This document shows positions 20,905-62,677 of a DNA stretch of 64,000 nt, piece by piece. The stretch's first letter is position 1. Each line of letters opens with the position of its first letter. The DNA comes from an uncultured Steroidobacteraceae bacterium (lineage in GTDB: Bacteria; Pseudomonadota; Gammaproteobacteria; Steroidobacterales; Steroidobacteraceae): assembly GCA_964600315.1 (NCBI GenBank), contig CAZRKS010000001.1, positions 7,078-71,077 on the forward strand, read 5' to 3'. The position numbers were made by a program, and so were the translations under genes. Below the pieces are notes generated by a model. It did not search any database. It saw only the letters and a program-made list of their open reading frames with translations, and was not told where the DNA came from.

Positions 20905-20963
20905 CGACGCAACCCGGAACCGCCGGCGGGCGGGCGAGCCCGCCTGCGCACGCAACGCGCTGT

Positions 20964-27716: not shown

Positions 27717-28175
27717 TCAGCCGCGGGTGCTCCGGCGCCTGCCCGCTGGCTTCCTGTTGACCGGGCGCGTCCCCGCGGCCCGCCGTTGCGGTTCGGCGCG
27801 CGCGAGCAGGCGATCGACCTTGTCGCGCAGCTCGGCCATGTCCTCGCCGGTCGGCACGCCCAGGCGCATCAAGACCGCCATGACCCGCTCGTCGAACACG
27901 CCCTGCAATCGCCCTTGGGACGGCAAGCCCATCATTCTGCTCGGCGACCCGGTCCAGTCACTCCAGACCTTGCGGGCCACCTCGTGCAGTTCCGGCTCCA
28001 GCCTGCGGCCTTCTGCGACGAGGGTCCTGAAGTCCGCCCGGGCCCGGTTCCTGTCGGCCCCGTTGGCACGGTTCAGGGACGCCAGCCCGGCGAGGACGAC
28101 GTCGTGGGACGACTCCCGGACGCGCGAAAGCCAGGCGTCGGATTCGGCCTTCGTGCGGATCTTTCGGCTCGGCAT
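27717..28175 (-). CDS. phasin-like granule-associated protein (PhaI/PhaF N-domain type)
   Basis: 152 aa, GGAGAAATC SD. VVLAGLASLNRA...FRTLVAEGRRLE...VFDERVMAVLMRLGVPTGEDMAELRDKVDRL matches the pattern I recall for Pseudomonas PhaI/PhaF (WLAGLGAY...FDxRVxxxLxRLGxPSxxDxxxL). Basic tail. Confidence 0.7.
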   Translation of the reverse strand: MPSRKIRTKAESDAWLSRVRESSHDVVLAGLASLNRANGADRNRARADFRTLVAEGRRLEPELHEVARKVWSDWTGSPSRMMGLPSQGRLQGVFDERVMAVLMRLGVPTGEDMAELRDKVDRLLARAEPQRRAAGTRPVNRKPAGRRRSTRG

Positions 28176-30433: not shown

Positions 30434-30445
30434 GGCCTCGCCCCC

Positions 30446-31846: not shown

Positions 31847-31984
31847 CGGCTCTGATTCTCCTGCAGGGGCCGGTTCTGCCGCCGGCACTCGTGAGCGATG
31901 ACACGGCCGGGCCCGACCGTCGAGTCGGCGTTCCGGCCTCGCCAGCGTCGCAGGCAGGACTGCTGCGCTCATCCCCCGTTCAGA

Positions 31985-33469: not shown

Positions 33470-33530
33470 CGCTGCAAACCTCCCGCTGCCTGACCTCTTC
33501 CCCGGCTCCTCGCAACACCGGCACCCGATC

Positions 33531-37687: not shown

Positions 37688-37841
37688 AGGGTAGCGGAGG
37701 GCGTCGGCCGGCGTGTCCCGCACCGCAGCACGACCGGGCCGACGGGCGCCTGCGGCTAGTCCGGTTGAGTGATTTGTCCGTCGACGGGGGAAACTAATGT
37801 GCGTTACTCGAAGATCCAAGCGACAGGCAGGGGAGACAATC

Positions 37842-46383: not shown

Positions 46384-46414
46384 GCGCCCCGGTGTGCGGG
46401 CACGCACGGAAGCG

Positions 46415-47176
46415 TCACGACAGGATGACGCGGTCGCCGGCGGTCCAGCCGCCGTCGACGAGAAGGCAGTGGCCCGTGACGAACGAAGCATCGTCGGAGA
46501 CGAGGAACAGCGCGGGCCCCGCGACCTCCTCGGGCCGGCCGAACCGGGCGAGCGCGTGCCAGTCCCGCATCTGCTGCTCGACCGGAGGGTACTGTGAGAT
46601 CGCCGCCGTCATCGGCGTCTTGATCACCCCCGGACACAGCGCGTTGACGCGGATGCCGAGCGCTCCGTATTCCATCGCCATGGACCGGACCAGCATCACG
46701 ACCCCGCCCTTCGACATGCTGTACGCGGCGCTGCCGGCCTGGGCGTGCAGCCCGAGCACGCTCGCGAGCAGCACGATGCTGCCGCTGCGCGCCGCGAGCA
46801 TCGGCCGGACCGCGTGCTTGGCCACGTACGCCGAGCCCTTCAGGTTCACGTCGAGGACGCGCTCGAGGCTCGCGGCCTCGAGCTCGTGTGTGGCGCCGTG
46901 GCCTTCGATGCCGGCCGCGTGCACGACCGCGTCGAGCCGGCCGTGCCGCTGCAGCACGGCCGCCACCATGGCTTCGACACTGCGCTCGTCGCTGACGTCG
47001 ACCGCGAGCGACAGCGCCCCGGGCGCCTGGAGCCACGCCGCGGCGCCGTCCATCGGCTGCTGGTCGGCCCCGGCGACCAGCGCGCCCTCCCGTGCGAAGC
47101 GCTCCGCGCAGGCCGCACCGATGCCCGAGGCGGCGCCGGTGACCAGGACGACCTTGCCATCGATTCTGTGGGCCAT
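46415..47176 (-). CDS. short-chain dehydrogenase/reductase
   Basis: 253 aa. KVVLVTGAASGIGAACA and YSMSK motifs. Confidence 0.85.
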   Translation of the reverse strand: MAHRIDGKVVLVTGAASGIGAACAERFAREGALVAGADQQPMDGAAAWLQAPGALSLAVDVSDERSVEAMVAAVLQRHGRLDAVVHAAGIEGHGATHELEAASLERVLDVNLKGSAYVAKHAVRPMLAARSGSIVLLASVLGLHAQAGSAAYSMSKGGVVMLVRSMAMEYGALGIRVNALCPGVIKTPMTAAISQYPPVEQQMRDWHALARFGRPEEVAGPALFLVSDDASFVTGHCLLVDGGWTAGDRVILS

Positions 47177-48315: not shown

Positions 48316-48951
48316 CTACGGCAGGGTCGCGAGGCGCGCAATCAGGCGCGCGAGGGTGAGGTAGTACCGGTGCGCGTCGTGGCGCTCCAGCCGCGCCGCC
48401 AGATCCGTCGCCCAGCGCGCCGGATGGCGGCGCTGGAAATCGGTACGCGCGCGCCGGTAGTCGTCGGCGCCTGTGCCCGCGACCAGGCACTCGGCCTCGC
48501 GCTGGCTCAAGAAATGCAGGAAATCCATCTGCGCGAACGCATGATCGGGCAGCTCGTTCCCCGGCGCACCGGCGGCGGTGAGCCCGAAGTGGTTATAGAA
48601 CCGCACCAGTTCCTCCAGCAGCTTCATGCGTCCGTCCTGCCCGAGCAGCGCACCGCTGTTCAGCGGGCACGCCGGGCCGCCCGGCCCGATCGGGTCGAAC
48701 AGCCGTGAGTATTCGGTCGCGAGCGCTTCGCCCGCGGGAACGTCCGCGAGCGCCGACCAGTCGATCGCACCTTCCAGCGACGGGTCGAGCGCGCCGAGCA
48801 GCTCCCTCGCCCGCTGCATCACCGCACCATCCTGGATCAGTGCCACCAGCGCTGCGTCGGGGTATTCGAGCGCGGCGGCCAGCAACCCCCACGCCTCGCT
48901 GCGCAGCCGCGCCCTCTCGGCCAGGCGCCCGCGGTCGAGCGCAATCGTCAT
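48316..48951 (-). CDS. NarJ/TorD/EbdD-type molybdoenzyme assembly chaperone (delta 1)
   Basis: Trimmed to ATG 48951, overlapping the alpha stop (ATGA). 211 aa. EYSRLFDP motif and acidic helical character typical of redox-enzyme maturation proteins. Confidence 0.7.
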   Translation of the reverse strand: MTIALDRGRLAERARLRSEAWGLLAAALEYPDAALVALIQDGAVMQRARELLGALDPSLEGAIDWSALADVPAGEALATEYSRLFDPIGPGGPACPLNSGALLGQDGRMKLLEELVRFYNHFGLTAAGAPGNELPDHAFAQMDFLHFLSQREAECLVAGTGADDYRRARTDFQRRHPARWATDLAARLERHDAHRYYLTLARLIARLATLP

Positions 48952-51836: not shown

Positions 51837-51890
51837 GGCGCAATTCTCCTTCCGGCCGACCGATCCGTGCCCCGCCCCGACGCGCTCCGC

Positions 51891-52913
51891 TCAGACCCAC
51901 TTGATCGTCTGGGGATCGCGGTCAAAGCCGCCGAACATGTCCTGCCAGCGGTAGGCGATCAGCAGGTCCATGAGTTCGGAGCGCTCGCCGCGCGCGGTCT
52001 TCGCGCGCTCCTCGGCCAGGATGCGCAACGCGTCGAGCACCCGCTCGCCGAACAGCGACACGAGGTACTCGTTCGGGATGCGCGGGCTCGCGGTGTCGAC
52101 GCGTCCCTCGGCGTCGAAACGCGCGGGAGCGCTCGGCGGCACGTAGAACACGTTCGGCTCGGTGCCGAATTCCGGATGCAGCGGCAAGGCAACCTGCCAC
52201 TTGTCGACCAGCTTCCAGATCGGCGCATCCTGGTCGTCCCGGTACCCGACGAAGCGCACGCGCCCCGGGCACTGGCGGGCGCACGCCGGCGCCACGCCCT
52301 GCTCGAGACGGGGAAAGCAGAAGATGCACTTCTGTGACACGCGCGTGGCGTGATTGAAGTAGATCTTCTTGTACGGGCAGGCTTCCATGCAGTGGCGGTA
52401 GCCGCGGCAACGGTCCTCGTTGACCACCACGATGCCGTCCTGCGCGCGCTTCTCGATCGCCCCGCGCGGACAGGCCTCCCTGCACGCCGGATGTGTGCAG
52501 TGGTTGCAGAGGCGCGGCAGGTAGAAGAAGAAACTGTTGGGGAATTCACCGCCACCCTGGTCCTCGTCCCAGTTCGGTCCCCACTGCGGCGCGGCGCCCT
52601 TCACCGACAGGTGCACGTCCTGCCCTTTGCCGCCGTAGAACACTTCCTCGTGGTTGTACTGCCACGCATCGCCGAATTCGCCCAGCGACGGCAGCGTGCC
52701 GAGTTGCGCCTCGCCGCCCGGGAAGCCGCCGCCCATCTTCTCCCACTGCCGCGGTGTGCCCTCGCCGGGCATCGTGTTCACGGTGTTGAAGAACATGTGC
52801 TCCATGCCCTGGCTCGACGTCCACAGCGTCTTGCAGGCGACGCTGCAGGTCTGGCAGCCGATGCACTTGTTGAGATCCAGGACCATCGCCATCTGGCGCT
52901 TGATTTCCGCCAT
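51891..52913 (-). CDS. four-cluster Fe-S electron-transfer subunit (NarH/EbdB-like beta), copy 1
   Basis: 340 aa. Cys clusters CIGCQTCSVACK, CNHCTHPACREACP, CRGYRHCMEACP and CIFCFPRLEQGVAPACARQCP. Confidence 0.9.
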   Translation of the reverse strand: MAEIKRQMAMVLDLNKCIGCQTCSVACKTLWTSSQGMEHMFFNTVNTMPGEGTPRQWEKMGGGFPGGEAQLGTLPSLGEFGDAWQYNHEEVFYGGKGQDVHLSVKGAAPQWGPNWDEDQGGGEFPNSFFFYLPRLCNHCTHPACREACPRGAIEKRAQDGIVVVNEDRCRGYRHCMEACPYKKIYFNHATRVSQKCIFCFPRLEQGVAPACARQCPGRVRFVGYRDDQDAPIWKLVDKWQVALPLHPEFGTEPNVFYVPPSAPARFDAEGRVDTASPRIPNEYLVSLFGERVLDALRILAEERAKTARGERSELMDLLIAYRWQDMFGGFDRDPQTIKWV

Positions 52914-52955
52914 CGCCTCGCTCCCCTGGGTGCCCCGGCCAGATCGCCGACGTGA

Positions 52956-53600
52956 CTACGCGAGCACCAGTTCCCGCCAATCGCCCGAGTACGCCTTCAG
53001 TCCACCGCGTTCCCGGTGCGACCCTTCCCACACCGCGACGCCGAAACGCGTCGTCTGTCCGGCCGCGAGCGCGAGGCTGTCGGCGTTGCCTTCGCCCGCA
53101 AGCGTGCGCGCCATCACCAGTTGCCAGGCCTCACCGCGCCATGCCGCCCGCGCCTGCACGCCACGGCCGGTGATGCGCGTCGTCCCCGGCCCCTCGGCAC
53201 GAACCTCGAAGCCCTGCGGGCCGCTGTCGGCACGCCACAACCACGCCGTGAGCGGCATGCCCGGTGCGCCCATCGTGATCAGGGGCGCAGACGCGTGCAG
53301 CGGCAGTGCGATCGCGGCGGCGTCCGGGAACACCGTGTTGTCACCGTGGTCGTAGTTCGGTGCGGGATCGGCCCAGCGCAGATGGAAGAGCAGTGAATCA
53401 CCCGCGACGAGGGCCCGCACCTCGACCGCGCGGACTGCGCCGATGACACGATCGTACCAACCGTTGCGCACCGCGGCGGTGGGCTGCAATCCGACCGGAG
53501 TGCCCTGCAACGCGACCGCGGTCGCCGCCACCTCGCCCCACGCGGGTGCGGCGGGATCGAGCAGGCTCGCCAGGGAGTGAACGGTGGAACTCGCTTTCAT
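52956..53600 (-). CDS. heme b-binding gamma subunit (EbdC / EB_dh-domain-like), copy 1
   Basis: 214 aa. LITMGAPGMP and C-terminal ERGGLKAYSGDW resemble the Met and Lys heme-ligand contexts I recall for ethylbenzene dehydrogenase gamma. The N-terminus also resembles EbdC. Confidence 0.75.
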   Translation of the reverse strand: MKASSTVHSLASLLDPAAPAWGEVAATAVALQGTPVGLQPTAAVRNGWYDRVIGAVRAVEVRALVAGDSLLFHLRWADPAPNYDHGDNTVFPDAAAIALPLHASAPLITMGAPGMPLTAWLWRADSGPQGFEVRAEGPGTTRITGRGVQARAAWRGEAWQLVMARTLAGEGNADSLALAAGQTTRFGVAVWEGSHRERGGLKAYSGDWRELVLA

Positions 53601-53817
53601 CGCCCTGCTCCGGAAACGGCAGCCGCCATCGGCACGTGTCGGGATTCACCTGACCAACGATTCTAGGGAGCGTGCAACGGCACGGAGGGCCGGCATCCCC
53701 AGATTGGGCGATCTGGCGCCCGCTCTGGCCGGGACCCGTCGCGTCGACAGTTCGCCGCACCCTTCGCTATCATCGCGCGGGGCCCGAGCCCGCCAGCCGA
53801 CTCGCCGGGGCCGCGAC

Positions 53818-54276
53818 GTGAAGATCGACGAAGCCGAGTTCTCCGCGCATTACTACCAGCTCTCGTACATGCTCTCGCGCTTCCTCGTACCGACGATGCG
53901 CGAAACCTACCGCGAGTTCGGCGGAGACATGCTGCTAACGCTGGTGCTCGGCGAGATCGCCACGCGCAACCTCGGACAATTCTTCGCACGCGGCGAACCC
54001 GAACTGCCGGAATCGGTGCTGAACGACCCGTCGCTGCAACGACGGTTGCTGCGTCCCTGCAATGCTCTGTCGATCAGCGACGCGACCGGGATTCCGCGCG
54101 AAACCGTGCGTCGACGCGTCAAGACGCTGTGCGAACTCGGATTGATCGACCAGGACGAACGCGGACACCTCTACGTGACACAGAAGGCCGCGGACCGATT
54201 CCAGCGCATCACCCGCTCGGCGCTCGAGGACCTTCTCCCCATCGCCGAATCCCTCAACGCCCTGCTGCGCCGGTAG
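53818..54276 (+). CDS. putative winged-helix transcriptional regulator
   Basis: The C-terminal two-thirds contain ISDATGIPRETVRRRVKTLCELGLIDQDERGHLYVT (HTH plus wing). GTG 53818 was chosen because the longer track ORF would overlap the gamma gene start. The start is uncertain. Confidence 0.45.
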   Translation: MKIDEAEFSAHYYQLSYMLSRFLVPTMRETYREFGGDMLLTLVLGEIATRNLGQFFARGEPELPESVLNDPSLQRRLLRPCNALSISDATGIPRETVRRRVKTLCELGLIDQDERGHLYVTQKAADRFQRITRSALEDLLPIAESLNALLRR

Positions 54277-54294
54277 TTCGGTCTACGAGCGAAA

Positions 54295-55743
54295 TCAGCC
54301 GCCGGCGACCGCCTCGGCGACGGTGAAGCCCGACATGATCGCCTGCTGCGTGCCGATGCCCCGGCCGCCGGCATCACAGCCGACCAGGTAGAGGCCCTGC
54401 ACCGGAGTCTGGATCGACGGCTTGCTGTCCCCGCACTGGCCGACGATCTGTGCCAGGCCGATGGTCTCTCCACCGGTGCCTGGCAGGGTGGGGTCACGGG
54501 TGGCGTTCGAGACGCTTCGGGTGGTGTAGAGGTCCTTCTCCTCGATCAGGCCGCGCGCCTGCGGGAACAGGCCGAAGAAGATCTCCTCGCCGGCATTGGC
54601 CCACGCCGCAATCGATTCCTTCCTCATCGCCGGATCGGGCGGGCAGAACGAGCCGGTGAGGATCACCTGCTTGCCGGCCGGTGCGGCGCCGGGGTGGTAG
54701 TTGTTGGGTGCTTCGAAATAGAGCACCCCTTCGCGCGACGCCTCGCCGCGGTCGGCGGCAGCCAGCCGGGCACTGCTCCAGGGGCTGCTGTCGGAAAAGA
54801 CCACGCCGAACCCCTTGTCGGTGATCGGCTCCCGGAGGAAGTAGCGGTAGCCGAGCAGCGCCTGCGAGGGCACGAGTCCCTTGACGCGCTCGACGTAGTC
54901 GGTCGGGAATGCCGCCTCGCCGGCCAGCTTCAGCACGGTCGGCTGGATGCCGGCGTTGCTGATCACGATCGGCGCCCGATGGATGGCGCCGTCCCTGGTT
55001 TCGATGCCGGTCACCCGCCCCGCTTCGATCAGGATGCGGTTGACGCGGGTGTGCATCCGCACCGTACCACCGTTGCGACGCACCGATTCCACGCATGCCT
55101 CGCCCAGTGCGCCGTATCCCCCCTGACAGAAGAGCCCACCGCCGCGCAGGAAGATGTCCTGGAGCCCCAGGATCGCCTCGGCGGCGTCGAGCCGGTCGAC
55201 CGGCACCATGTACATTCCGTCGAGACAGAGACTGACGATGAAGGCATAGAGCGGCTGCGGGAGGCCGGCGGCCCTGATGAGGCTCTCGAAATCGGTGCCC
55301 TCGTGGCTCTTGATCCGCTCCGGCGGCATCAGGGTGAGGGCGATGAAGAACTCGAGCGCCCGGGCGCGGTCGGGACCGGCGACGCCGAGCCAGTCGAAGA
55401 GAAGGTTGGGGTCGACATGGCCGTCCATTTTCGGCATCGCGTGGTACTTCCCCTGGGGGGTCTTGTAGTAGCTGCCCGACTCGGAGGCGACCAGCGTGAC
55501 GGCATCCGCGATCCCGAGCTCATCGACCAGCTTCTGGCACCCGTTCGGCCTGACCGGAGCCCCCATGATCGGCCAGGCGGAGTAGGTGAAACCCTTCTTG
55601 CTCAGGGACAGCGCCTTGCCGCCGGCGACGCTGTTCTTCTCCACGACCAGGACGTTGAGCCCCCGCCTGGCGAGCAGTCCGGCACAGGCGGCACCGCCGA
55701 GGCCAGCCCCGATCACGATGGCGTCGAGACCTCTGCTGGTCAT
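54295..55743 (-). CDS. FAD-dependent oxidoreductase, phytoene desaturase (CrtI)/amine-oxidase-like family
   Basis: Trimmed to ATG 55743, overlapping the TetR stop (ATGA). DAIVIGAGLGGAACAGLLARRGLNVLVVEKNSVAGGK dinucleotide fold and C-terminal GLYLVGCDAGGRGIG. 482 aa. Confidence 0.8.
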   Translation of the reverse strand: MTSRGLDAIVIGAGLGGAACAGLLARRGLNVLVVEKNSVAGGKALSLSKKGFTYSAWPIMGAPVRPNGCQKLVDELGIADAVTLVASESGSYYKTPQGKYHAMPKMDGHVDPNLLFDWLGVAGPDRARALEFFIALTLMPPERIKSHEGTDFESLIRAAGLPQPLYAFIVSLCLDGMYMVPVDRLDAAEAILGLQDIFLRGGGLFCQGGYGALGEACVESVRRNGGTVRMHTRVNRILIEAGRVTGIETRDGAIHRAPIVISNAGIQPTVLKLAGEAAFPTDYVERVKGLVPSQALLGYRYFLREPITDKGFGVVFSDSSPWSSARLAAADRGEASREGVLYFEAPNNYHPGAAPAGKQVILTGSFCPPDPAMRKESIAAWANAGEEIFFGLFPQARGLIEEKDLYTTRSVSNATRDPTLPGTGGETIGLAQIVGQCGDSKPSIQTPVQGLYLVGCDAGGRGIGTQQAIMSGFTVAEAVAGG

Positions 55744-56432
55744 GCGGCGCGGGCCGCCCGGTCCATGGCCCCCTCGACCAGCATGGCCACGAGTTCGGCC
55801 TGCTTCTTCCTCGCCCTCGCAGACATCGGCTCGGCGCCCAGCAGTCCCGCATAGAGCGGCGCCATGGTGATGTAGGACATCACCATGTTGTTGAGGGCCA
55901 CGACGGCCCAGCCCTGCAGCAGCCGCTCTCCCAGCACTTCGAGATTCGCGGTTTTCAACTTCGCCGGATCGCGGCGAAACATCGGTCCGAGCAGCCTGGC
56001 GACGAGCTCCTCGGTGCGGGGTCCGCCGTCGAGCGCGGCATGCTGCAGCAGTCGCGCCAGGTTCGGATGCTCGAAGTGCCGCGCGACGTAGCGGCGCAGC
56101 CATTCGAGCACGCGCTCGCGCGAGATCACCCCGGTCTGCAGCTCGGTCGTGAGCGGCACGAAACGCGCGAGCAGCCGCTCCATCACCGCGAGGTACAGCG
56201 CTTCCTTGCTGCGGTAGTGGCTGTAGAGGCTCGGGGCGCGGATGCCGACCTGCTCGGCGATGTCCACGAGCGAAGCGGCCGCGTAGCCGCGCGCCGCGAA
56301 CGTCTGTTCCGCGACGTCGAGGACGCGTTCGGCGGTGGACGTGCGCTGCCCGGTGCCGCGTGCGGGGAGTGCCGCGGGCCGGCGCCGGCGGCCCGTGCGG
56401 GCCGGCTCAGCCCGCTGCGATGCGCGTGTCAT
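55740..56432 (-). CDS. TetR/AcrR-family transcriptional regulator
   Basis: 230 aa. HTH segment AERVLDVAEQTFAARGYAAASLVDIAEQVGIRAPSLYSHY. The 5' end overlaps delta 2 by 26 nt. Confidence 0.8.
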   Translation of the reverse strand: MTRASQRAEPARTGRRRRPAALPARGTGQRTSTAERVLDVAEQTFAARGYAAASLVDIAEQVGIRAPSLYSHYRSKEALYLAVMERLLARFVPLTTELQTGVISRERVLEWLRRYVARHFEHPNLARLLQHAALDGGPRTEELVARLLGPMFRRDPAKLKTANLEVLGERLLQGWAVVALNNMVMSYITMAPLYAGLLGAEPMSARARKKQAELVAMLVEGAMDRAARAA

Positions 56433-56910
56433 GTTGGAATGCCTCGAGAATGGCTGTCATGCGTGCATCGCCGTGCTGCAGCGCCGTGCGCGCCGCCTCC
56501 GACCAGGGGGCGATGCAGCGCTGCACCAACCCTGCCACGAGCACCGGCTCCTCGCGCTCGATGGCGAGCGCGTAGAGCTCGCACGCGAGCGCCAGGTGAT
56601 CGGGCGGCAGCAGTCGCCCGCTAGTCTCGACCTCGAGGTGCTCGGCAACCCTTAGCAGCGTCTCGCGCAGCGTGCTGCCGTCGGCGCCCGGCAGCGCGTG
56701 CAGTTGCAGGGGCACGGGGGGTTGCGGCACTCCGGCATGGAAGGTGTTCCAGAAATCGACGCACGCGGTGTCGTAGCTGCCCGGCAGCGCGAGCGCCTCC
56801 CACGCTGCGTGGAGCGTGGCTACCTCGCTCAACGGGCTCCACAGTCGCGCCCAGGCGAGCATGCGCAGCGTGCCGTCCTTGATCGCGGGCACCGTCGCCA
56901 CGGAGTTCAC
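56407..56910 (-). CDS. putative molybdoenzyme assembly chaperone (delta 2)
   Basis: GTG 56910 overlaps the gamma 2 stop (GTGA). 167 aa, acidic and helical, in the position of EbdD/NarJ. Sequence similarity to delta 1 is weak by eye. Confidence 0.5.
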   Translation of the reverse strand: MNSVATVPAIKDGTLRMLAWARLWSPLSEVATLHAAWEALALPGSYDTACVDFWNTFHAGVPQPPVPLQLHALPGADGSTLRETLLRVAEHLEVETSGRLLPPDHLALACELYALAIEREEPVLVAGLVQRCIAPWSEAARTALQHGDARMTAILEAFQHDTRIAAG

Positions 56911-57452
56911 GCGAGCTCCACCCAGCCGGGGCTGACGGACTTGAGTCCGGCGCGTTCCTGCTCGGCGCCGCGCCAGATGGCGAGCGCGAGGCGACGGTGC
57001 GCCGCGAGCGCCGGCCACTCCGCCACCGCGAAGGCCACGCGCCAGCGGCCGCTCTCCCAGGCCGACGTCGCGCGGATGCCGGATGGAACTGCACTGCGCT
57101 GCATGCTGCCGAGACCTTCCGCACGCACCCGCAGTGGCGCGTCCTTGTCCGCGCGCCAGAGCCAGCCCTGCACGGCCATGCGCGGCGCGCCCATGGTGAT
57201 CCACGGCGCCTCGGGGACTTCGGGCGCGAAGATGGCACAGGCGTCGACGAAACGGTCGGTCTCGCGGGCGACATCCCGCACCGGCTGTGGGCAATCCCAG
57301 GCGAGCACGATCTGCCACCCCTGGTCCGCGGGCTCCACGGCGATCTCAGCCGTGGCGGTGAGCGGCGTCGCGCGATCGGCGTAGGCTGCCGGCACGTAGC
57401 CGCCGGGCTGGATCGCGGTCGGCGCCGACATCAGTGCGACTCTCTGCTTCAT
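56907..57452 (-). CDS. heme b-binding gamma subunit (EbdC-like), copy 2
   Basis: 181 aa. WITMGAPRMA and ERAGLKSVSPGW are counterparts of the copy 1 motifs. Starts 4 nt after the beta 2 stop. Confidence 0.7.
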   Translation of the reverse strand: MKQRVALMSAPTAIQPGGYVPAAYADRATPLTATAEIAVEPADQGWQIVLAWDCPQPVRDVARETDRFVDACAIFAPEVPEAPWITMGAPRMAVQGWLWRADKDAPLRVRAEGLGSMQRSAVPSGIRATSAWESGRWRVAFAVAEWPALAAHRRLALAIWRGAEQERAGLKSVSPGWVELA

Positions 57453-57456
57453 GGCA

Positions 57457-58494
57457 TCACGCGAACACTTCGCGCTGGTGCGGTGCCAGCCGGAAATTCT
57501 GCTGCCAGTCGTACGCGATCAGCAGGTCCATGAGTTCGCTCGGCTCACCGCGCTGGCGCTTCGCGCGCTCGGCACGGAGCGTCTCGAGCGCAGGTCGCAC
57601 GGCCGCGCCGAACAGCGACTCGAGATACGCGAGCGGAATGCGCGGCTCTGCCGTCGGGCGCCCGTCCGCATCGAGCTGCGGCGGCGAGAGCGGCGGCACG
57701 TAGAAGACGTTCGGCCCCAGGCCGTACTCGGGGTGCAAGGGAATGGCCACCTGCCACTTCTCGACCAGCTTCCAGATCGGGCCCTGCTCGTCGTCGCGGA
57801 AGCCGACGAAGCGCAGGCGGCCCGGGCACTGCCGCGCGCAGGCCGGCGCCACGCCCTCCTCGATGCGCGGCAGACAGAAAATGCACTTTGCCGCGACCTG
57901 GCGCACGTGGTCGTAGTAGACCTTCTTGTAGGGACAGGCCTCGACGCAGAAACGATAGCCGTGGCAGCGGTCCTGGTCGACCAGCACGATGCCGTCCTGC
58001 CTGCGCTTCTCGATCGCCGCGCGCGGGCAGGCATCGAGGCAGGCCGGATGCGTGCAGTGGTTGCACAGGCGCGGCAGGTAGAAGTGGTGATTGTCCCGAG
58101 GATAGCGGCCGGCGCCCTGGTCCTCGTCGAAGTTCGGCCCCCATTGCACCTGCCCGGCGGGCCGGATCCAGATCTTCTCCTTCGCGCCCGCCGACGCGCG
58201 CGCCTGCTCGTGATCGAAGGTCCACGCGCGCCCGTAGCCGGTATCGACGTTCGGCACGACGCCGCGCTTCACCTCGCCGCCCACGGTGCGCCCACCCGTC
58301 GCGGGATCGTGCACGCCCGCCGGGAAGCCCTTGCCCGGCAGCGTCTCGACGTTGTTCCAGTAGCTGTAGTTCGTGCCCTCGTCGGTGTTCCAGAGCTTCT
58401 TGCAGGCGATCGTGCAGGTCTGGCAGCCGAGGCACTTGTTGAGGTCGAGCACCATCGCGACCTGGGCGTCGGGTTTCGGGACGTCGTACTTCAT
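57457..58494 (-). CDS. four-cluster Fe-S subunit (NarH/EbdB-like beta), copy 2
   Basis: Trimmed to ATG 58494 (MKYDVPKPDAQVAMVLDLNKCLGCQTCTIACK). Further clusters CNHCTHPACLDACP, CHGYRFCVEACP and CIFCLPRIEEGVAPACARQCP. 345 aa. Confidence 0.9.
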   Translation of the reverse strand: MKYDVPKPDAQVAMVLDLNKCLGCQTCTIACKKLWNTDEGTNYSYWNNVETLPGKGFPAGVHDPATGGRTVGGEVKRGVVPNVDTGYGRAWTFDHEQARASAGAKEKIWIRPAGQVQWGPNFDEDQGAGRYPRDNHHFYLPRLCNHCTHPACLDACPRAAIEKRRQDGIVLVDQDRCHGYRFCVEACPYKKVYYDHVRQVAAKCIFCLPRIEEGVAPACARQCPGRLRFVGFRDDEQGPIWKLVEKWQVAIPLHPEYGLGPNVFYVPPLSPPQLDADGRPTAEPRIPLAYLESLFGAAVRPALETLRAERAKRQRGEPSELMDLLIAYDWQQNFRLAPHQREVFA

Positions 58495-58504
58495 GCGGGG
58501 CGCC

Positions 58505-61465
58505 TCAGGTGTCGACCACCGGCTTCGCGCCGGTGGCCTGCCCCGTCCAGGGACGCAGGCCGATGCGCGTGTCCTGCACGGCACTGCCGGGTTGATAACG
58601 ATTCATGGCCTGCCGGATGTGGCCGTAGCCTCCCGCCATGTGCAGCGGGTTGACCAGGCCCGGGATTAGGAACTTGTAGGACTCGTGATTCGCGAACTGG
58701 TGCGGCTCCCAGGCGTGGTAGTAGTACGCGACGCCCGGGCGCACCATGGCGGCGACCTTCACGCGCATGCGCACCGAACCGTAGTCGTTGAAGATCTCCG
58801 CGTACTCGTAGTCGTGCACACCGCAGCGCGCGGCATCTTCGGGGTTGACCCACACCTGCGGCTCGCCGCGTTGCAGCCGCAGCATCATCGGCGTGTCGCG
58901 CCAGGTGGAGTGGATCGACCAGCGCGCGTGGCAGCTCACGAACTGGAACGGGTAGTCGCCGCCGGCCTTCGGGCTCGCCTTGTGGGTCGCGAACTGCTCG
59001 CGGAATTCCACGAACCACGGGTGGTCGATGAACGTCGTGATGCGCCCGCTGTAGGTCGGCCACGGCTCCTTGTGCTCGGTGAAGCGCGTGAGCGTCGTGA
59101 GCACGCCGGGGCCCTTCCAGTCGGGGTTGTGCAGCGACGTCGCCGCAATGTCCATGCCGGTGGCGGTGTAGCGGGCGATGCCTGTCTGCTTGAGGCCCGC
59201 GACGGTCATGCCGTCCGTGGACTTGCTGCGCAGGATCTCGTCGGCGAGCTTCTCGGCATCCTTGGGGCCGAGCGTGCCCTGGTTGGAATAACGCTGGTGC
59301 AGCGTCTTCCAGTCGATCGGCCCGCGGCCGCAGCCGTCGAACACCGGCAGGTCGCGCTCCTGCGCGAGGCGCTCGATCTCGCGGCTCAGGAGCCAGTAGA
59401 TCTCGTACTCGTCCTTCGCTTCGCCGAGCGGCGGCACGGCCGCGTCGCAGTAGTGGAGGTAAGGGACGTGCGCGACGGTGTACTTGATGCCCGATTTCTC
59501 GTACCAGCCGGCCGCCGGCAGGATGTAATCCGCGTGCATGCCGGTGAAAGTGAACTTCGGGTTGATGTCGACGATCAGCTCCATCTGGTCGAGCTGATGG
59601 GCCTTCAGGTACTGCGGCAGGTTGTTCCGCCGCAGCAGGTTGGCGCCGCCCGAGAAGTACACCCTGGGCGGCGCCTTGCGCGGCAGGCCCGGCGCCCAGC
59701 CTTTGTCGTGCGCCTCGTCGTAGTAGGCGCCGAGCGGGCGCGGCGACAGGCCCTGCTGTTCGCGCTCGAGCGCGGCCCGGTAGCCCGGCGCCTTCAGGTT
59801 CACCTCCACGACGTCCGTCGTGCAGAGCTTCGTATCGAGGTACTTGGTCTCGCCCGCGAGCGCCACGTCGAGTTCGGTCTTGCGCTTCCTGGCGATCTCG
59901 AGCATTGCGTTGAAGAGTTCGCCGGGCGTGACGGCCCCGAACAGCACGGCGAGCCGGCCGCGCAGCCCGGGCTGCTCCATCCGCATCGCGTTGCTGAACC
60001 CGTCGAGGTCGACCCATGCGGTCGATTGATAGCCCGCGCCCCTGCGCCCGAGCGCGCCCTTCAGCGCCAGGCACAGGAGCTTCGCGCGGTTCATCAGGTC
60101 GGAGTGCACGTAGCGGTTGGAGCCCCACGAGGACAGCACCATCGGCCGTTCGGCCCGCGCCCAGCCCTGCGCGAACTGCCGGACCTGATCGACGTGAAGG
60201 CCGGTGACCTCGGCCGTGCGCTCGAAGGTCCAGGGCTCGAGATGCTCTTTCAGCAATGCGCCCACCGGGACCACGAGCACCTCGCGGCCGTCGGCGAGCG
60301 CCACCGGCCACTGACCGTCGATTGGCGGCTCGAAGTCGAGCGTCAGGCGGCGCGTCTCGCTGCCCGAAGCGCCGGGCGCTGCGACGGGCTCCCTGCGTCC
60401 CGGGTGCCACAGGTAGAGCTGGTCCGGCCGGCCGCCCGTCTGGAGATCCTCTTCGCGCAGGAAGCGCCCCGTGTCGAGGCGCACCAGCAAGGGCAGGTCC
60501 GTCTGCTCGCGCACGAAGGGCAGGTCGACGGCGTTCGCCTCGAAGAGGTGCCGCGCCACGGCGAGCGCGAGCGCCGCATCGGTACCGACGGCAATCGGAA
60601 GCCACTGGTCGGCGTGGATGGCGGTGGGCGAGTAGACGGGATCGATCACCACCAGTTCGGCGCCCCCGTAGCGCGCCTCGTAGAGAAAATGCGCGTCCGG
60701 GATCTGCGTGACCGACGGGTTCATCATCCACACGACGAGGAAGTCGGAGAGGAACCACTCGTCCGAGGAGCCACCGGTGTGCGCGAAACCCAGGGTCATG
60801 GTCGCGCCGATGTTGAGGTCGCCGATCTCGGCCCAGTTGTCGGCGAAGATCCCGCCCGCCATGAACTGGAACTTGAAGCGCCCGGCGGTCGTGGGACCGA
60901 AGTCGAAGTTCGGGCCGAGATCCTGGTACAGCGTGTCGGTGCCGTAGCGCGTGGCCGCGTCGATGCATTTCCCGGCGATCTCGCGCATCGCCTGCTCCCA
61001 GCCGATGCGCTGCCACTGGCCCGAGCCACGGGGCCCGATGCGCTTCAGCGGCACGAGGGTGCGTGAGGGCCCGTACATCACTTCCGTGTAGCAGGCGCCT
61101 TTCTGGCAGCCGCGCGGATTGAAGTCCGGCACGCCGGGCTCCGACTGCGCATAAGTGGCCGTTTGCTCTTCGCGGACCACCACGCCGCCCTTGACGTACA
61201 TGTCCCAGGCGCAAGCCGAGCGGCAGTTGGCCCAGCCGTGGGAGCCCTTGACGACGCGGTCCCAGGTCCACCGCTGGCGGTAGAGGTCCTGCCAGTTGCC
61301 GAGCTTCGGCGTCGTGCGGGGCCCGGGCACGGCGGCGGGCGCGCCACGCTTGAAGACGTAGTGGTACAGCGGAATGCCGGCGGCGCTCGCGGCGGCCGCG
61401 CCACCCAGCAGCTGCAGCAGGCGGCGGCGGTTCAGGCGCAGGCCCCGGCGTTCGTCGACGGACAC
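58505..61465 (-). CDS. molybdopterin oxidoreductase catalytic subunit, type II DMSO-reductase family (EbdA/S25dA-like), copy 2
   Basis: 986 aa. GTG start 61465, preceded by GAGGGAGAG. Tat leader RLNRRRLLQLLGGAAAASAAG. HGWANCRSACAW...NPRGCQKGAC. Candidate Asp in WAEIGDLNIG. Confidence 0.9.
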   Translation of the reverse strand: MSVDERRGLRLNRRRLLQLLGGAAAASAAGIPLYHYVFKRGAPAAVPGPRTTPKLGNWQDLYRQRWTWDRVVKGSHGWANCRSACAWDMYVKGGVVVREEQTATYAQSEPGVPDFNPRGCQKGACYTEVMYGPSRTLVPLKRIGPRGSGQWQRIGWEQAMREIAGKCIDAATRYGTDTLYQDLGPNFDFGPTTAGRFKFQFMAGGIFADNWAEIGDLNIGATMTLGFAHTGGSSDEWFLSDFLVVWMMNPSVTQIPDAHFLYEARYGGAELVVIDPVYSPTAIHADQWLPIAVGTDAALALAVARHLFEANAVDLPFVREQTDLPLLVRLDTGRFLREEDLQTGGRPDQLYLWHPGRREPVAAPGASGSETRRLTLDFEPPIDGQWPVALADGREVLVVPVGALLKEHLEPWTFERTAEVTGLHVDQVRQFAQGWARAERPMVLSSWGSNRYVHSDLMNRAKLLCLALKGALGRRGAGYQSTAWVDLDGFSNAMRMEQPGLRGRLAVLFGAVTPGELFNAMLEIARKRKTELDVALAGETKYLDTKLCTTDVVEVNLKAPGYRAALEREQQGLSPRPLGAYYDEAHDKGWAPGLPRKAPPRVYFSGGANLLRRNNLPQYLKAHQLDQMELIVDINPKFTFTGMHADYILPAAGWYEKSGIKYTVAHVPYLHYCDAAVPPLGEAKDEYEIYWLLSREIERLAQERDLPVFDGCGRGPIDWKTLHQRYSNQGTLGPKDAEKLADEILRSKSTDGMTVAGLKQTGIARYTATGMDIAATSLHNPDWKGPGVLTTLTRFTEHKEPWPTYSGRITTFIDHPWFVEFREQFATHKASPKAGGDYPFQFVSCHARWSIHSTWRDTPMMLRLQRGEPQVWVNPEDAARCGVHDYEYAEIFNDYGSVRMRVKVAAMVRPGVAYYYHAWEPHQFANHESYKFLIPGLVNPLHMAGGYGHIRQAMNRYQPGSAVQDTRIGLRPWTGQATGAKPVVDT

Positions 61466-61566
61466 TGCTTCGCTCTCCCTCGGCTGGACGGTGGACCGCG
61501 GGAGGAGCGTAGCAGACTAACGCCTAATAGGGTATAGGTTCCGCAAGGCGGCGCGACGCGAGGCGG

Positions 61567-62580
61567 TCAGGACCGCAGCAGTTCCGCGACGTCGCGCACG
61601 GCGTCGATGTCCTGGCAGGCGACCAGCATCGTCGTCACCGGTGACTCTTCCCAGACGGCGAGGCGCTCGCGTATGCGCGCGCGTGGCCCGAGCAGCGAGA
61701 TCTCGTCGGCGAACTGGTCCGGGACGGCCCTCACCGCCTCGGTGCGCCGGCCCGCGAGGAAGTGCTCCTGGATGGCGTTCGCCTCGGCCTCATAGCCCAT
61801 GCGCGCCATCAGGTTCTTGTGGAAATTGTGTTCCTGCGCACCCATGCCGCCGACGTAGAAGGCGAGCGCCGTCTTGACCGGCAGCAGCGCAGCCTGCAGG
61901 TCGTCGTTCACGTTGACCATCACCATCGGCGCGATCTCGAAGCCGGGCTTCGCATCGCGGATCTGGTCCGCGTAGATCTCGGGGTGAAACGGTGTGTAAT
62001 AGAGCGGCAGCCAGCCGTCGGCAATGGCCGCCGTCTGGGCAACGTTCTTCGGGCCTTCCGCGCCGATGTAGATGGGAATGTCCGCGCGCAGCGGATGCGT
62101 GTTGGCGCGCAGCGGCTTGCCGACGCCGACGGCCCCGGGCCCGCGATAGGGCAGCGGGTAATGAGGGCCCGGGTTCGTCACGGGCTTCTCGCGCCTGAGC
62201 ACCTGGCGCACGACGTCGACGTATTCCCGGGTTCGCGCCAGGGGCTTGTCGAAGGGCATCCCGTACCAGCCTTCCACGACCTGCGGACCGGAGACCCCGA
62301 GACCGAGGATCATCCGTCCGCCGGACAGCCGGTCGAGCGCCAGCGCCGCCATGGCGCACGCGGTCGGCGTGCGCGCGGAGAGTTGCGCGATGCCCGTGCC
62401 GAGCTTGATGCGCTTCGTGTGCGCACCGATCCAGGCGAGCGGCGTGAAAACGTCGTTGCCCCACGACTCCGCCGTCCAGACCGAGTCGAAGCCGAGACGC
62501 TCCGCTTCCTGCGCCAGCCCGACGTGGCCATCGGGCGGCGGCTCCGAACCCCAGTAACCGAGCTGCAATCCGAGCTTCAT
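61567..62580 (-). CDS. luciferase-like (LLM-class) flavin/F420-dependent oxidoreductase
   Basis: MKLGLQLGYWGS...GFDSVWTAESWGND is typical of LLM TIM-barrel enzymes. ATG 62580 is preferred, with GGAGG 10 nt upstream. The track start is GTG 62589. Confidence 0.85.
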   Translation of the reverse strand: MKLGLQLGYWGSEPPPDGHVGLAQEAERLGFDSVWTAESWGNDVFTPLAWIGAHTKRIKLGTGIAQLSARTPTACAMAALALDRLSGGRMILGLGVSGPQVVEGWYGMPFDKPLARTREYVDVVRQVLRREKPVTNPGPHYPLPYRGPGAVGVGKPLRANTHPLRADIPIYIGAEGPKNVAQTAAIADGWLPLYYTPFHPEIYADQIRDAKPGFEIAPMVMVNVNDDLQAALLPVKTALAFYVGGMGAQEHNFHKNLMARMGYEAEANAIQEHFLAGRRTEAVRAVPDQFADEISLLGPRARIRERLAVWEESPVTTMLVACQDIDAVRDVAELLRS

Positions 62581-62677
62581 TTCGTTCACGCCTCCGCCGT
62601 CATCATGGGTTCTGTGGGCCGAGGGCTGCCTCGGCGGTCGCGAGGGCCCAGCACCACGCCCTCGCCTCGAGCATCTT

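What the first reader, a model, noticed from the sequence alone, without database searches (positions are those of the whole stretch)
54295..61465. Second Mo-hydroxylase operon translationally chained to a TetR regulator and a CrtI-like FAD oxidoreductase
Six genes run alpha (986 aa), beta, gamma, delta, TetR and a 482-aa phytoene-desaturase-family flavoprotein. Spacings are 10 nt, 4 nt, a GTGA overlap, a 26-nt overlap and an ATGA overlap, which suggests a single transcript. By eye the alpha subunits of the two operons are clearly diverged paralogs, not recent copies. A desaturase-type flavoenzyme hard-wired to an O2-independent hydroxylase could supply or consume an alkene, via a desaturate-then-hydrate or hydroxylate-then-oxidise sequence. 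This pairing is not part of the described ethylbenzene or steroid C25 dehydrogenase systems, as far as I know. The repressor embedded inside the operon is also unusual.
Basis: partly seen in the sequence, partly recalled or inferred. Interest (0 to 1): 0.75.

Follow-up and report, generated by a model that had tools for sequence, protein, structure and literature searches.

The report
Sterol C26-hydroxylase operon plus orphan flavoprotein
This is a six-gene unit in a Sterolibacterium-like bacterium that joins an oxygen-independent molybdenum enzyme of the steroid C26-hydroxylase type to a TetR regulator and an uncharacterised carotenoid-desaturase-like flavoprotein; a flavin desaturase working with this kind of molybdenum enzyme was already shown in 2024, so this is a new variant and not a new kind of system.

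Summary
Six co-directional minus-strand genes have exactly the reported junctions: 10 nt, 4 nt, GTGA, a 26-nt overlap and ATGA. The delta-TetR-flavoprotein part recurs in three independent assemblies.

The Mo enzyme is not an ethylbenzene or C25 dehydrogenase. Its alpha subunit is 72-75% identical to the three steroid C26 dehydrogenase (S26DH1-3) alphas of Sterolibacterium denitrificans, which hydroxylate the allylic C26 methyl of delta-24 sterols. It has the same alpha-beta-gamma-delta order, a Tat signal, the Mo-ligand Asp and the heme b Met/Lys ligands.

The 482-aa flavoprotein has a CrtI/PDS fold and belongs to a narrow, well conserved, uncharacterised orthogroup. It is not the published delta-24 steroid desaturase type (CtmAB-like): it has Trp at the covalent-FMN His position and is about 22% identical.

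The linkage is sporadic. The nearest relatives of the operon (88-89%) keep alpha-beta-gamma-delta-TetR without the flavoprotein, and the nearest relatives of the flavoprotein (71-77%) have no Mo enzyme nearby. Orthologues of both do lie side by side in four distant loci. One metagenome contig chains a true CtmAB-like pair to an S26DH-type operon.

The flavoprotein's reaction is unknown.

The parts
58505..61465 (-). alpha2: Mo-bisPGD catalytic subunit of the S26DH (steroid C26 dehydrogenase) clade, 986 aa, with a Tat signal (NRRRLLQ)
   Evidence: Pfam Molybdopterin and Molydop_binding. TIGR03479 794.7 bits, below the 984.75 cutoff; EbdA equivalog 469 bits against a cutoff of 2000. 72-75% identical to the three S. 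denitrificans S26DH alphas and 89% to L111. EbdA Asp223 aligns with Asp216. The His/Cys FS0 motif is SHGWANCRSAC...C.
57457..58494 (-). beta2: Fe-S electron-transfer subunit, 345 aa
   Evidence: Fer4_11. TIGR03478 478.2 bits against a cutoff of 480.7. 75-76% identical to the S. denitrificans S26DH betas.
56907..57452 (-). gamma2: heme b subunit, 181 aa
   Evidence: TIGR03477 71 bits, sub-threshold. Aligns with EbdC (2ivf_C, E 3e-12) and keeps the residues at EbdC Met108 and Lys201. 51-52% identical to the 181-aa gammas of S. denitrificans S26DH1-3.
56407..56910 (-). delta2: divergent NarJ/EbdD-type maturation chaperone, 167 aa, GTG start overlapping the gamma stop
   Evidence: No Pfam, NCBIfam or PDB hit. 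Pairwise E 1e-5 to delta1, which is a TIGR03482 chaperone, including the PPDHL motif. 45% identical to the gene after gamma in the S. denitrificans S26DH1 cluster, and 39-62% in 11 other loci.
55740..56432 (-). TetR-family regulator, 230 aa, overlapping delta2 by 26 nt
   Evidence: TetR_N 50.6 bits. There is only one possible start codon. A 76% identical orthologue lies directly after delta in L081/L087, and a truncated copy in L111.
54295..55743 (-). CrtI/PDS-fold flavoprotein of an uncharacterised orthogroup ('CrtI490'), 482 aa, 50.8 kDa, no signal peptide, ATGA overlap with TetR
   Evidence: Amino_oxidase and NAD_binding_8. crtI_fam 85 bits against a cutoff of 238. AF2 pLDDT 85; Foldseek top hits 3ka7, 4rep, 4dgk and 5mog. 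Homologues of 59-77% identity across several phyla. Only about three 50%-identity clusters reach 50% identity or more. Trp57, invariant in the aligned homologues, sits where CtmAB and delta-24-SD carry the flavinylated His.
61522..61538 (-). Conserved AT-rich element CCTATACCCTATTAGGC in the 101-nt region upstream of alpha2; candidate promoter or TetR operator
   Evidence: Unique in the window. Shared almost exactly with the upstream region of the 88% orthologue in L081, while the flanks have diverged. Function is inferred only.

Best explanation
The region is one catabolic operon for oxygen-independent oxidation of a sterol-type (isoprenoid) side chain.

Genes 1-4 encode a periplasmic, Tat-exported alpha-beta-gamma enzyme with Mo-bisPGD, Fe-S clusters and heme b, plus its cytoplasmic maturation chaperone delta. 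The enzyme belongs to the steroid C26 dehydrogenase (S26DH) clade. By analogy with S26DH1 and S26DH2, it hydroxylates with water an allylic methyl group next to a side-chain C=C. It would do this by hydride abstraction to Mo(VI)=O followed by OH rebound, passing electrons through the Fe-S clusters and heme b to an external acceptor.

Gene 5 is a TetR-family regulator. It probably senses a sterol-like intermediate and controls the unit.

Gene 6 is a cytoplasmic CrtI-fold flavoprotein, predicted from sequence to bind its flavin non-covalently. It has been appended to a pre-existing alpha-beta-gamma-delta-TetR unit in this lineage. It most likely acts on a double bond of the same side chain. It could form it (desaturation, as delta-24-SD does), saturate it (delta-24 reduction) or isomerise it. 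Intermediates would flip across the membrane between the two enzymes, as proposed for the published pathway.

Shown here: gene structure, family and clade assignments, cofactor-ligand residues, and conservation and non-conservation of the gene linkage. Inferred: co-transcription, the substrate, and every step that involves the flavoprotein.
For: - Junctions and ORFs are as described, and the arrangement recurs in three assemblies.
- S26DH clade membership: 72-75% identity to the three S. denitrificans alphas, which are 79-84% identical to each other. This matches the published DH5-7 subcluster, now S26DH1-3 (PMC7411048, PMC11061730). The alpha-beta-gamma(-delta) order and the 181-aa gamma are the same.
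- Tat motif, Mo-ligand Asp216, FS0 motif and heme Met/Lys ligands are present.
- The context is steroid-type. In the 88% orthologue, ChsH-like and Ltp2-like genes follow the unit. S. denitrificans S26DH3 sits beside SDR, acyl-CoA ligase and aldehyde dehydrogenase genes. The window carries acyl-CoA dehydrogenases, a thiolase-like gene, CoA-transferases, esterases and SDRs.
- The flavoprotein has a CrtI/PDS fold.
- Its orthologues lie beside S26DH-clade genes in L025, L026, L061 and L071, from different taxa and in a different (convergent) orientation.
- It is often the third gene after two CtmAB-like flavoprotein genes: 21 of 67 loci.
- A CtmAB-like pair carrying the covalent-FMN motif is chained 13 nt upstream of an S26DH-clade operon in L092.
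- There is published precedent for a flavin desaturase feeding S26DH2 (PMC11061730) and for alternating periplasmic and cytoplasmic steps (PMC7411048).
Against: - The linkage is not conserved where it should be most conserved. The 88-89% operon orthologues (L081, L087, L111) and all other alpha2-clade loci with flank lack the flavoprotein.
- The 71-77% flavoprotein orthologues in Rhodocyclaceae/Sterolibacterium MAGs sit in unrelated, partly housekeeping neighbourhoods.
- Only 7 of 67 flavoprotein loci have any EbdA-family gene within the fetched flanks.
- In L025 the orthologue coexists with a true delta-24-SD-like pair, so it may not be the desaturase.
- No transcript, substrate or cofactor data exist.
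- The alpha is outside the S. denitrificans S26DH1-3 trio, and those three already differ in substrate, so its specificity is unknown.
Confidence: 0.62

Rival explanations
1. The flavoprotein is specifically an alkene-forming side-chain desaturase that supplies the allylic substrate of the Mo enzyme. It would be functionally equivalent to delta-24 steroid desaturase and would bypass the ATP-dependent S25DH/kinase/lyase route.
For: - The S26DH clade needs an allylic methyl (PMC7411048).
- Delta-24-SD plus S26DH2 is a proven pair (PMC11061730).
- L092 chains a CtmAB-like pair to an S26DH-type operon.
- The fold is that of CrtI/PDS desaturases.
- The window has no CtmAB-like gene that could do the job instead.
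Against: - It is about 22% identical to CtmAB-like proteins, is a single gene, and has Trp at the flavinylated His position.
- In L025 it coexists with a true CtmAB-like pair.
- Flavin desaturation of a fully saturated, unactivated side chain is chemically demanding. The published enzyme needs a pre-existing delta-22 bond (PMC11061730).
- The fold is shared with isomerases, reductases and amine oxidases.
Confidence: 0.25
2. The flavoprotein consumes or rearranges the alkene. It would be a RetSat-like double-bond reductase (for example the delta-24 reduction mentioned but left unassigned in the published pathway figure) or a CrtISO-like E/Z isomerase, acting after or beside the Mo enzyme.
For: - The legend of Fig. 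[quoted passage not shown]
- The second-best NCBIfam hit is carotenoid isomerase (67 bits, sub-threshold), and JGI annotates homologues as prolycopene isomerase.
- In L025 it sits next to a dedicated desaturase-type pair, which suggests a different role.
Against: - All family scores are far below their cutoffs.
- No reductant-supplying partner is encoded in the unit.
- No biochemical data exist.
Confidence: 0.25
3. The adjacency is a lineage-specific accident. The flavoprotein has an unrelated role in isoprenoid lipids or housekeeping and merely landed downstream of the TetR gene.
For: - The closest relatives of both partners lack the linkage.
- In Sterolibacterium MAGs the gene lies beside gltBD, glmU and cysQ/cysDN-type genes.
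- From the alpha2 side, none of about 10 loci with flank has it.
Against: - The ATGA overlap and matching GC3 (0.89) argue for integration into the unit.
- Orthologues of both partners are neighbours in four distant loci, in another orientation. EbdA-family genes are rare, so 7 of 67 is well above a rough expectation of 1-2%. That expectation is my own estimate, not a computed value.
- Neighbours elsewhere are catabolic: enoyl-CoA hydratase, acyl-CoA dehydrogenase, SCP-x-type thiolase/DUF35 and KstD-like genes.
Confidence: 0.15
4. The Mo enzyme acts on a non-steroid substrate, for example an acyclic isoprenoid, a hopanoid or squalene-type lipid, or an isoprenoid wax-ester alcohol, and not on sterol C26.
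For: - The alpha is a sister to, not a member of, the S. denitrificans S26DH1-3 trio.
- The clade extends at 56-60% identity into Myxococcota, Binatia, Planctomycetota and others.
- The window is rich in wax-ester genes (four WS/DGAT and a fatty acyl-CoA reductase).
- The authors themselves suggest non-steroidal isoprenoids as possible substrates for this kind of reaction cascade (PMC7411048).
Against: - 72-75% identity to enzymes with proven sterol substrates.
- Steroid side-chain genes lie next to the 88% orthologue.
- The lineage is Sterolibacterium-like.
Confidence: 0.2

Closest known systems
Steroid C26 dehydrogenases S26DH1-3 of Sterolibacterium denitrificans (Jacoby et al. 2020, PMC7411048; Zhan et al. 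2024, PMC11061730)
   Same: - The alpha is 72-75% identical, the beta 75-76% and the gamma 51-52%.
- Same alpha-beta-gamma(-delta) order, Tat signal, 181-aa gamma and delta chaperone.
- Expected chemistry is the same: water-dependent hydroxylation of an allylic methyl.
   Different: - It lies outside the 79-84% trio, so the substrate is unknown.
- A TetR and a CrtI-fold flavoprotein are fused to the 3' end. The S. denitrificans clusters have neither at that position.
Delta-24 steroid desaturase (alpha 63 kDa / beta 57 kDa) and limonene dehydrogenase CtmAB
   Same: - Same flavoprotein superfamily (CrtI/COG1233-like).
- Published functional partnership with S26DH2.
- CtmAB-like pairs are gene-linked to S26DH-clade operons in L092 and L025.
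   Different: - The window protein is a single 51-kDa polypeptide, about 22-24% identical.
- It reads GFTYSAWP where the family has GF[LR]x[NS][TL]HA, so it has no His for covalent FMN.
- Elsewhere it is a third gene after a different CtmAB-like pair (fl574/fl562).
Ethylbenzene dehydrogenase EbdABCD (PDB 2IVF)
   Same: - Same type II DMSO-reductase architecture.
- Mo-ligand Asp and heme b Met/Lys ligands are conserved.
   Different: - Far below the NCBIfam equivalog cutoffs (469 against 2000 bits).
- EbdA His192 is Asn186 here.
- It is equally distant from perchlorate reductase PcrA.
CrtI / PDS / CrtD carotenoid desaturases (PDB 4DGK, 5MOG, 4REP)
   Same: - Same fold (Foldseek probability 1.0, TM 0.5-0.75).
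- N-terminal GxGxxG and C-terminal FAD motifs are present.
   Different: - 16-18% identity.
- crtI_fam 85 bits against a cutoff of 238.
- Family-specific invariant motifs C[LC]DGM[FY]MV and PGxGGETIG.
- No carotenoid genes nearby.

Membership tests
S26DH clade of type II DMSO-reductase alkyl-chain hydroxylases | The alpha subunit groups with S. denitrificans DH5-7 (S26DH1-3) and not with other paralogues | tested here: met
   72-75% identity to the three S26DH alphas, against 38% to alpha1 and to the other S. denitrificans paralogue P0257. The test used an identity matrix, not a full phylogeny that includes S25DH1-4, EbdA and CmdA.
S26DH clade of type II DMSO-reductase alkyl-chain hydroxylases | Tat signal on the alpha, Mo-ligand Asp, and His/Cys FS0 cluster motif | tested here: met
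   NRRRLLQ at residues 12-18. Asp216 aligns with EbdA Asp223. The motif is SHGWANCRSAC...NPRGC.
S26DH clade of type II DMSO-reductase alkyl-chain hydroxylases | Fe-S beta subunit, heme b gamma subunit with Met/Lys ligands, and a delta chaperone, in alpha-beta-gamma(-delta) order | tested here: met
   Delta is recognisable only by weak pairwise similarity and by orthology.
S26DH clade of type II DMSO-reductase alkyl-chain hydroxylases | [quoted passage not shown] | not testable with these tools
   This needs heterologous production and an enzyme assay.
Ethylbenzene dehydrogenase EbdABCD | NCBIfam equivalog scores (NF042978-81) | tested here: not met
   Alpha 469 against 2000, beta 382 against 740, gamma 61 against 400 bits; delta has no hit.
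Delta-24-SD / CtmAB-type flavoenzymes | Conserved G-F-L/R-X-N/S-T/L-H-A motif with His carrying covalent FMN | tested here: not met
   The window protein reads GFTYSAWP. Trp57 is invariant in the 24 aligned homologues. The motif is found intact in the CtmAB-like pairs of L025 and L092 and nowhere in the window.
Delta-24-SD / CtmAB-type flavoenzymes | Two adjacent paralogous subunit genes of about 57-63 kDa | tested here: not met
   A single 50.8-kDa gene. There is no fl574, fl562 or CtmAB homologue in the window.
CrtI phytoene desaturase family (TIGR02734) | Curated family score | tested here: not met
   85 bits against a cutoff of 238.1.
CrtI phytoene desaturase family (TIGR02734) | CrtI/PDS three-dimensional fold with FAD-binding Rossmann domain | tested here: met
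   AF2 pLDDT 85. Foldseek matches 4rep, 4dgk and 5mog with E 1e-22 to 1e-25.
TetR family regulators | N-terminal TetR HTH domain | tested here: met
   PF00440 50.6 bits against a cutoff of 24. The ligand and operator were not tested.

The most novel reading that the evidence does not exclude
The 482-aa 'CrtI490' orthogroup could be a new class of stand-alone flavoenzyme with non-covalently bound flavin that creates (or repositions) the side-chain double bond needed by S26DH-type Mo enzymes. That would be a third route to oxygen-independent hydroxylation of a primary carbon, independent of both the ATP-driven S25DH/kinase/lyase cascade and the CtmAB-like radical desaturase. It would also explain why the protein is 51-77% conserved across the phyla sampled, from Dehalococcoidia to Betaproteobacteria.
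Probability: 0.15. Interest if true: 0.75.

Novelty: new variant of a known kind. Interest (0 to 1): 0.48.

Why it matters
Anaerobic sterol degradation depends on a few unusual water-dependent C-H activations. Several steps still have no assigned enzyme, including the processing of side chains other than those of cholesterol and stigmasterol, and the delta-24 reduction.

This operon points to a concrete candidate for one of those steps. It is a well conserved, uncharacterised CrtI-fold flavoprotein that is translationally coupled to an S26DH-type enzyme here, and that neighbours S26DH-type and CtmAB-like genes in Myxococcota and other uncultured lineages.

It also shows that S26DH-type operons with a 3' TetR gene occur beyond S. 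denitrificans, in Rhodocyclaceae-like MAGs and metagenome contigs. Testing the flavoprotein could add a step to the pathway, or a new biocatalyst for sterol side-chain modification. If it proves unrelated to the pathway, the locus is simply another S26DH paralogue.

Tried and rejected
- The sigma-70 promoter and intrinsic terminator scan of 53500-61800 gave nothing inside or after the unit beyond chance. It cannot address co-transcription at 69% GC.
- Rfam (for example a Moco riboswitch) and tRNA scans of the whole window found nothing.
- A six-frame search for the covalent-FMN motif, and tblastn with CtmAB-like, fl574 and fl562 proteins against the window, found none. The window protein is therefore not part of a hidden CtmAB-like pair.
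- Foreign origin of the flavoprotein gene was considered and rejected: its GC3 of 0.89 matches its neighbours.
- An alternative TetR start that would remove the 26-nt overlap was sought; none exists.
- I tried to link the protein to the 53-kDa 'phytoene dehydrogenase' SDENChol_10468 (A0A7Z7HP62), which co-enriched with 25-hydroxysteroid kinase from cholesterol-grown S. denitrificans (PMC8449060 Table S1). No S. denitrificans protein appeared among the top 120 homologues (59% identity or more). Orthology stays untested.
- De novo clustering of neighbours of the flavoprotein family found no universal partner. It was noisy because of antisense ORFs. Targeted tblastn worked better.
- PcrA-type perchlorate reductase was considered because of its equal PDB score. 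It was rejected because of the 72-75% identity to S26DH and the EbdC-type heme b gamma subunit.
- PDB, Pfam and NCBIfam searches gave no hit for delta2.
Full report
**1. Observation**

The minus strand of 54295-61465 carries six consecutive ORFs:
- alpha2: 58505-61465, 986 aa
- beta2: 57457-58494, 345 aa
- gamma2: 56907-57452, 181 aa
- delta2: 56407-56910, 167 aa
- TetR: 55740-56432, 230 aa
- flavoprotein: 54295-55743, 482 aa

The junctions read directly from the sequence are 10 nt, 4 nt, GTGA, a 26-nt overlap and ATGA. These are exactly as reported. The TetR ORF has only one possible start codon, so the 26-nt overlap is not an artefact of choosing the longest ORF. All six genes have GC3 of 0.86-0.92 in a 69% GC window. 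The same delta-TetR-flavoprotein-(opposite-strand HTH)-gamma1 arrangement, with identical gene calls, occurs on contigs from three independent sequencing runs. The two alpha subunits in the window are 38% identical. Co-transcription remains an inference from spacing, because the promoter/terminator scan was uninformative.

**2. The Mo enzyme**

Pfam and NCBIfam place alpha, beta and gamma in the type II DMSO-reductase subfamily. They score far below the ethylbenzene dehydrogenase equivalog cutoffs. In the PDB the alpha is equally similar to perchlorate reductase PcrA and to EbdA.

The decisive result is the homologue search. The alpha is 75% and 73% identical to two S. denitrificans proteins. 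Their genomic loci are a tandem alpha-beta-gamma-delta/alpha-beta-gamma cluster and a third alpha-beta-gamma cluster that is followed by SDR, acyl-CoA ligase and aldehyde dehydrogenase genes. The three S. denitrificans alphas are 79-84% identical to each other and 72-75% to alpha2. Alpha2 is only 38% identical to alpha1 and to the other S. denitrificans paralogue retrieved.

This matches the published DH5-7 subcluster, described as more than 80% identical with DH8 distant. That subcluster was renamed S26DH1-3. S26DH1 hydroxylates the allylic C26 methyl of desmosta-1,4-dien-3-one, and S26DH2 hydroxylates that of the delta-22,24 diene from stigmasterol (PMC7411048; PMC11061730). Mapping the loci to S26DH1, 2 and 3 rests on gene order and on the consecutive accession numbers given in the paper. 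It is likely but was not verified by accession.

Sequence features agree with this assignment:
- A Tat motif is present.
- Asp216 aligns with the EbdA Mo ligand Asp223.
- The His/Cys FS0 motif is present.
- EbdA His192 is replaced by Asn186.
- Gamma2 keeps the residues that align with EbdC Met108 and Lys201.
- Delta2 has no family hit. It resembles delta1, a TIGR03482 chaperone, at E 1e-5 including a PPDHL motif. It is 39-62% identical to the gene after gamma in 12 other loci, including the S. denitrificans S26DH1 cluster.

**3. The TetR**

A 76% identical TetR gene follows delta directly in the 88% orthologous operon (L081 and L087). A truncated copy does so in L111. In L081 the next genes are a second TetR on the other strand, ChsH-like MaoC/DUF35 genes and an Ltp2-like thiolase. 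These are typical steroid side-chain genes.

The ancestral unit in this lineage is therefore alpha-beta-gamma-delta-TetR. The regulator looks 'embedded' here only because the flavoprotein gene was added after it. A 17-nt AT-rich element upstream of alpha2 (61522-61538) is conserved with L081. It is a candidate promoter or operator.

**4. The flavoprotein**

It matches Amino_oxidase and NAD_binding_8 in Pfam. Its best curated family hit is crtI_fam at 85 bits against a cutoff of 238. An AlphaFold model (pLDDT 85) matches 3ka7, CrtD-type 4rep, CrtI 4dgk and plant PDS 5mog at 16-22% identity. 'CrtI-like' is therefore right at fold level only.

It belongs to a narrow orthogroup:
- Its homologues are 59-77% identical in Rhodocyclaceae/Sterolibacterium, other Gammaproteobacteria, Myxococcota, Binatia, Dadabacteria and 'Deltaproteobacteria' MAGs, and 51-55% in Dehalococcoidia.
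- Among 1.84 billion representatives, only 115 clusters reach E 1e-30 or better, and about three reach 50% identity or more.

It is not the published desaturase type:
- Delta-24-SD and CtmAB carry covalent FMN on the His of G-F-L/R-X-N/S-T/L-H-A (PMC11061730). The window protein reads GFTYSAWP, with an invariant Trp.
- It is about 22-24% identical to CtmAB-like proteins.
- It has no signal peptide, so it is cytoplasmic, whereas the Mo enzyme is periplasmic. The published pathway already assumes that intermediates flip between compartments.

**5. Is the pairing conserved?**

From the flavoprotein side I examined 67 species-level genome loci with up to 10 kb of flank:
- An EbdA-family alpha lies nearby in 5 loci.
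- S26DH-clade genes (alpha 58-60%, beta 74%, gamma 50-54%, delta 41-45% identical to those of the window) lie nearby in 4: L025 (Myxococcota), L026 (Myxococcota), L061 (a 'Deltaproteobacteria' MAG) and L071.
- In L026, L061 and L071 the flavoprotein gene is convergent with the S26DH-type genes. In L025 the two lie on opposite strands about 7 kb apart. In none of the four is it co-directional.
- In L061 the intervening genes are a hydrolase, an enoyl-CoA hydratase and a KstD-like flavoprotein.
- None of the 13 loci with the closest flankable homologues (69-76%, mostly Rhodocyclaceae/Sterolibacterium), nor the best homologue of all (77%, L001), has a Mo enzyme nearby. Their contexts are variable and partly housekeeping.

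The most frequent partner, in 21 of 67 loci, is a pair of CtmAB-like genes (fl574 and fl562, 61-84% conserved) immediately upstream. This forms a three-gene flavoprotein module. In L025 that module is followed by a genuine CtmAB/delta-24-SD-like pair carrying GFLHNTHA and GFRLNLHA.

From the alpha2 side, I examined 37 metagenome loci plus the S. denitrificans loci and others. None of about 10 loci with enough flank has the flavoprotein. L092 has a CtmA-like/CtmB-like pair with the covalent-FMN motif ending 13 nt before a Tat-alpha of the S26DH clade.

Two conclusions follow. CrtI-superfamily flavoproteins and S26DH-type operons are recurrently linked, which supports a shared pathway. The specific link seen in this window is sporadic and is absent in the nearest relatives.

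**6. Mechanism**

The best-supported reading is as follows. The alpha-beta-gamma enzyme, matured by delta, is an allylic-methyl hydroxylase of a sterol or isoprenoid side chain. TetR is the local regulator. The flavoprotein acts on the double bond of the same side chain, with the direction unresolved.

The legend of Fig. 5 in PMC7411048 notes that delta-24 reduction is omitted from the figure and names no enzyme. Isomerase models are the second-best sub-threshold hits. The flavoprotein also coexists with a true desaturase-type pair in L025. A smaller weight goes to accidental adjacency.

One lead could not be closed. A 53-kDa 'phytoene dehydrogenase' (SDENChol_10468) co-enriched with 25-hydroxysteroid kinase from cholesterol-grown S. 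denitrificans.

**7. Context**

The window is a lipid and steroid catabolic island. It contains:
- acyl-CoA dehydrogenases, an enoyl-CoA hydratase, an SCP-x-type thiolase, CoA-transferases, SDRs, esterases and AMP-ligases;
- an old-yellow-enzyme-type reductase;
- a P450 and a Baeyer-Villiger-type monooxygenase;
- four WS/DGAT genes, a fatty acyl-CoA reductase, a sulfatase and two DUF1254/DUF1214 genes.

The first Mo operon (gamma-beta-alpha-delta, 48316-53600) has an alpha that is 68% identical to a single S. denitrificans paralogue. This argues for the orphan DH8 type and against S25DH1-4. In the 89% relative L111 the two operons are adjacent in a different order.

**8. Verdict**

The Mo operon is a new member of the known S26DH kind. 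Its fusion to a TetR gene and to an uncharacterised CrtI-fold orthogroup is a new variant of the already published theme of a flavin enzyme working with S26DH. Interest is moderate. The main value is a testable candidate enzyme and a conserved, unstudied flavoprotein module.

Noticed in passing
window 48316-53600 (minus strand) and 53818-54276 (plus strand): The first Mo operon has the order gamma-beta-alpha-delta. Its alpha is 68% identical to only one S. denitrificans 'S25DH-like' paralogue (P0257). No S25DH1-4-like set appears in the hit list, so it is probably the uncharacterised DH8 type. A 152-aa HTH gene is divergently transcribed from it, with the only sigma-70-like site of the region (53744-53773) in front of that gene. 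In the 89% relative L111 the two operons are adjacent in a different order.
   Followed up: partly
L018, L022, L023, L025, L036, L042, L047, L061, L062, L064 and others (21 of 67 loci): There is a conserved three-gene flavoprotein module, fl574-fl562-CrtI490. The two CtmAB-like proteins are 61-84% identical (mostly 74-84%) across Myxococcota, Binatia, Dehalococcoidia and Gammaproteobacteria MAGs. No curated family covers any of the three, and the module's function is unknown.
   Followed up: partly
L092:2269-10679: A metagenome contig carries CtmA-like and CtmB-like genes with the covalent-FMN motifs GFLHNTHA and GFRLNLHA. They end 13 nt upstream of a Tat-signal alpha of the S26DH clade, which is followed by beta, gamma and delta. 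This is a genomic counterpart of the published delta-24-SD/S26DH2 enzyme pair.
   Followed up: yes
window 43565-46491; also L001, L025, L063, L067, L111: Paired DUF1254/DUF1214 genes recur near S26DH-type operons and CrtI490 genes in several lineages, in some loci beside a sulfotransferase. The window also has a sulfatase (41254-42759). This may point to sulfated sterols or lipids.
   Followed up: no
window 28934-34946, 37797-39833, 27717-28175: Four tandem WS/DGAT (wax ester synthase) genes, a two-domain fatty acyl-CoA reductase/SDR and a phasin-like gene suggest neutral-lipid (wax or steryl ester) storage next to the catabolic genes.
   Followed up: no
window 19534-20973 and 11201-12661: A cytochrome P450 and a flavin (Baeyer-Villiger-type) monooxygenase lie in the same island as the oxygen-independent Mo hydroxylases. 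The organism probably uses both oxic and anoxic routes.
   Followed up: no
window 61522-61538 (minus strand): An AT-rich element, CCTATACCCTATTAGGC, lies upstream of alpha2. It is unique in the window and conserved upstream of the 88% orthologue in L081. It is a candidate promoter or TetR operator.
   Followed up: partly
window 54277-54294: The stop codons of the flavoprotein gene and of the convergent HTH gene are only 18 nt apart. There is no room for a terminator hairpin, so the transcripts may overlap.
   Followed up: no
window 61567-62589; L078, L122; PMC8449060 Table S1: A luciferase-like (LLM) oxidoreductase gene sits 101 nt upstream of alpha2. LLM genes also occur near alpha2-clade operons in L078 and L122. 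A luciferase-like protein and a 53-kDa 'phytoene dehydrogenase' co-enriched with 25-hydroxysteroid kinase from cholesterol-grown S. denitrificans.
   Followed up: partly
L025:6073-6471; L055, L061, L092: A small protein of about 132 aa with no family hit recurs (59-65% identity) next to Mo alpha genes or CtmAB-like genes in four loci.
   Followed up: no
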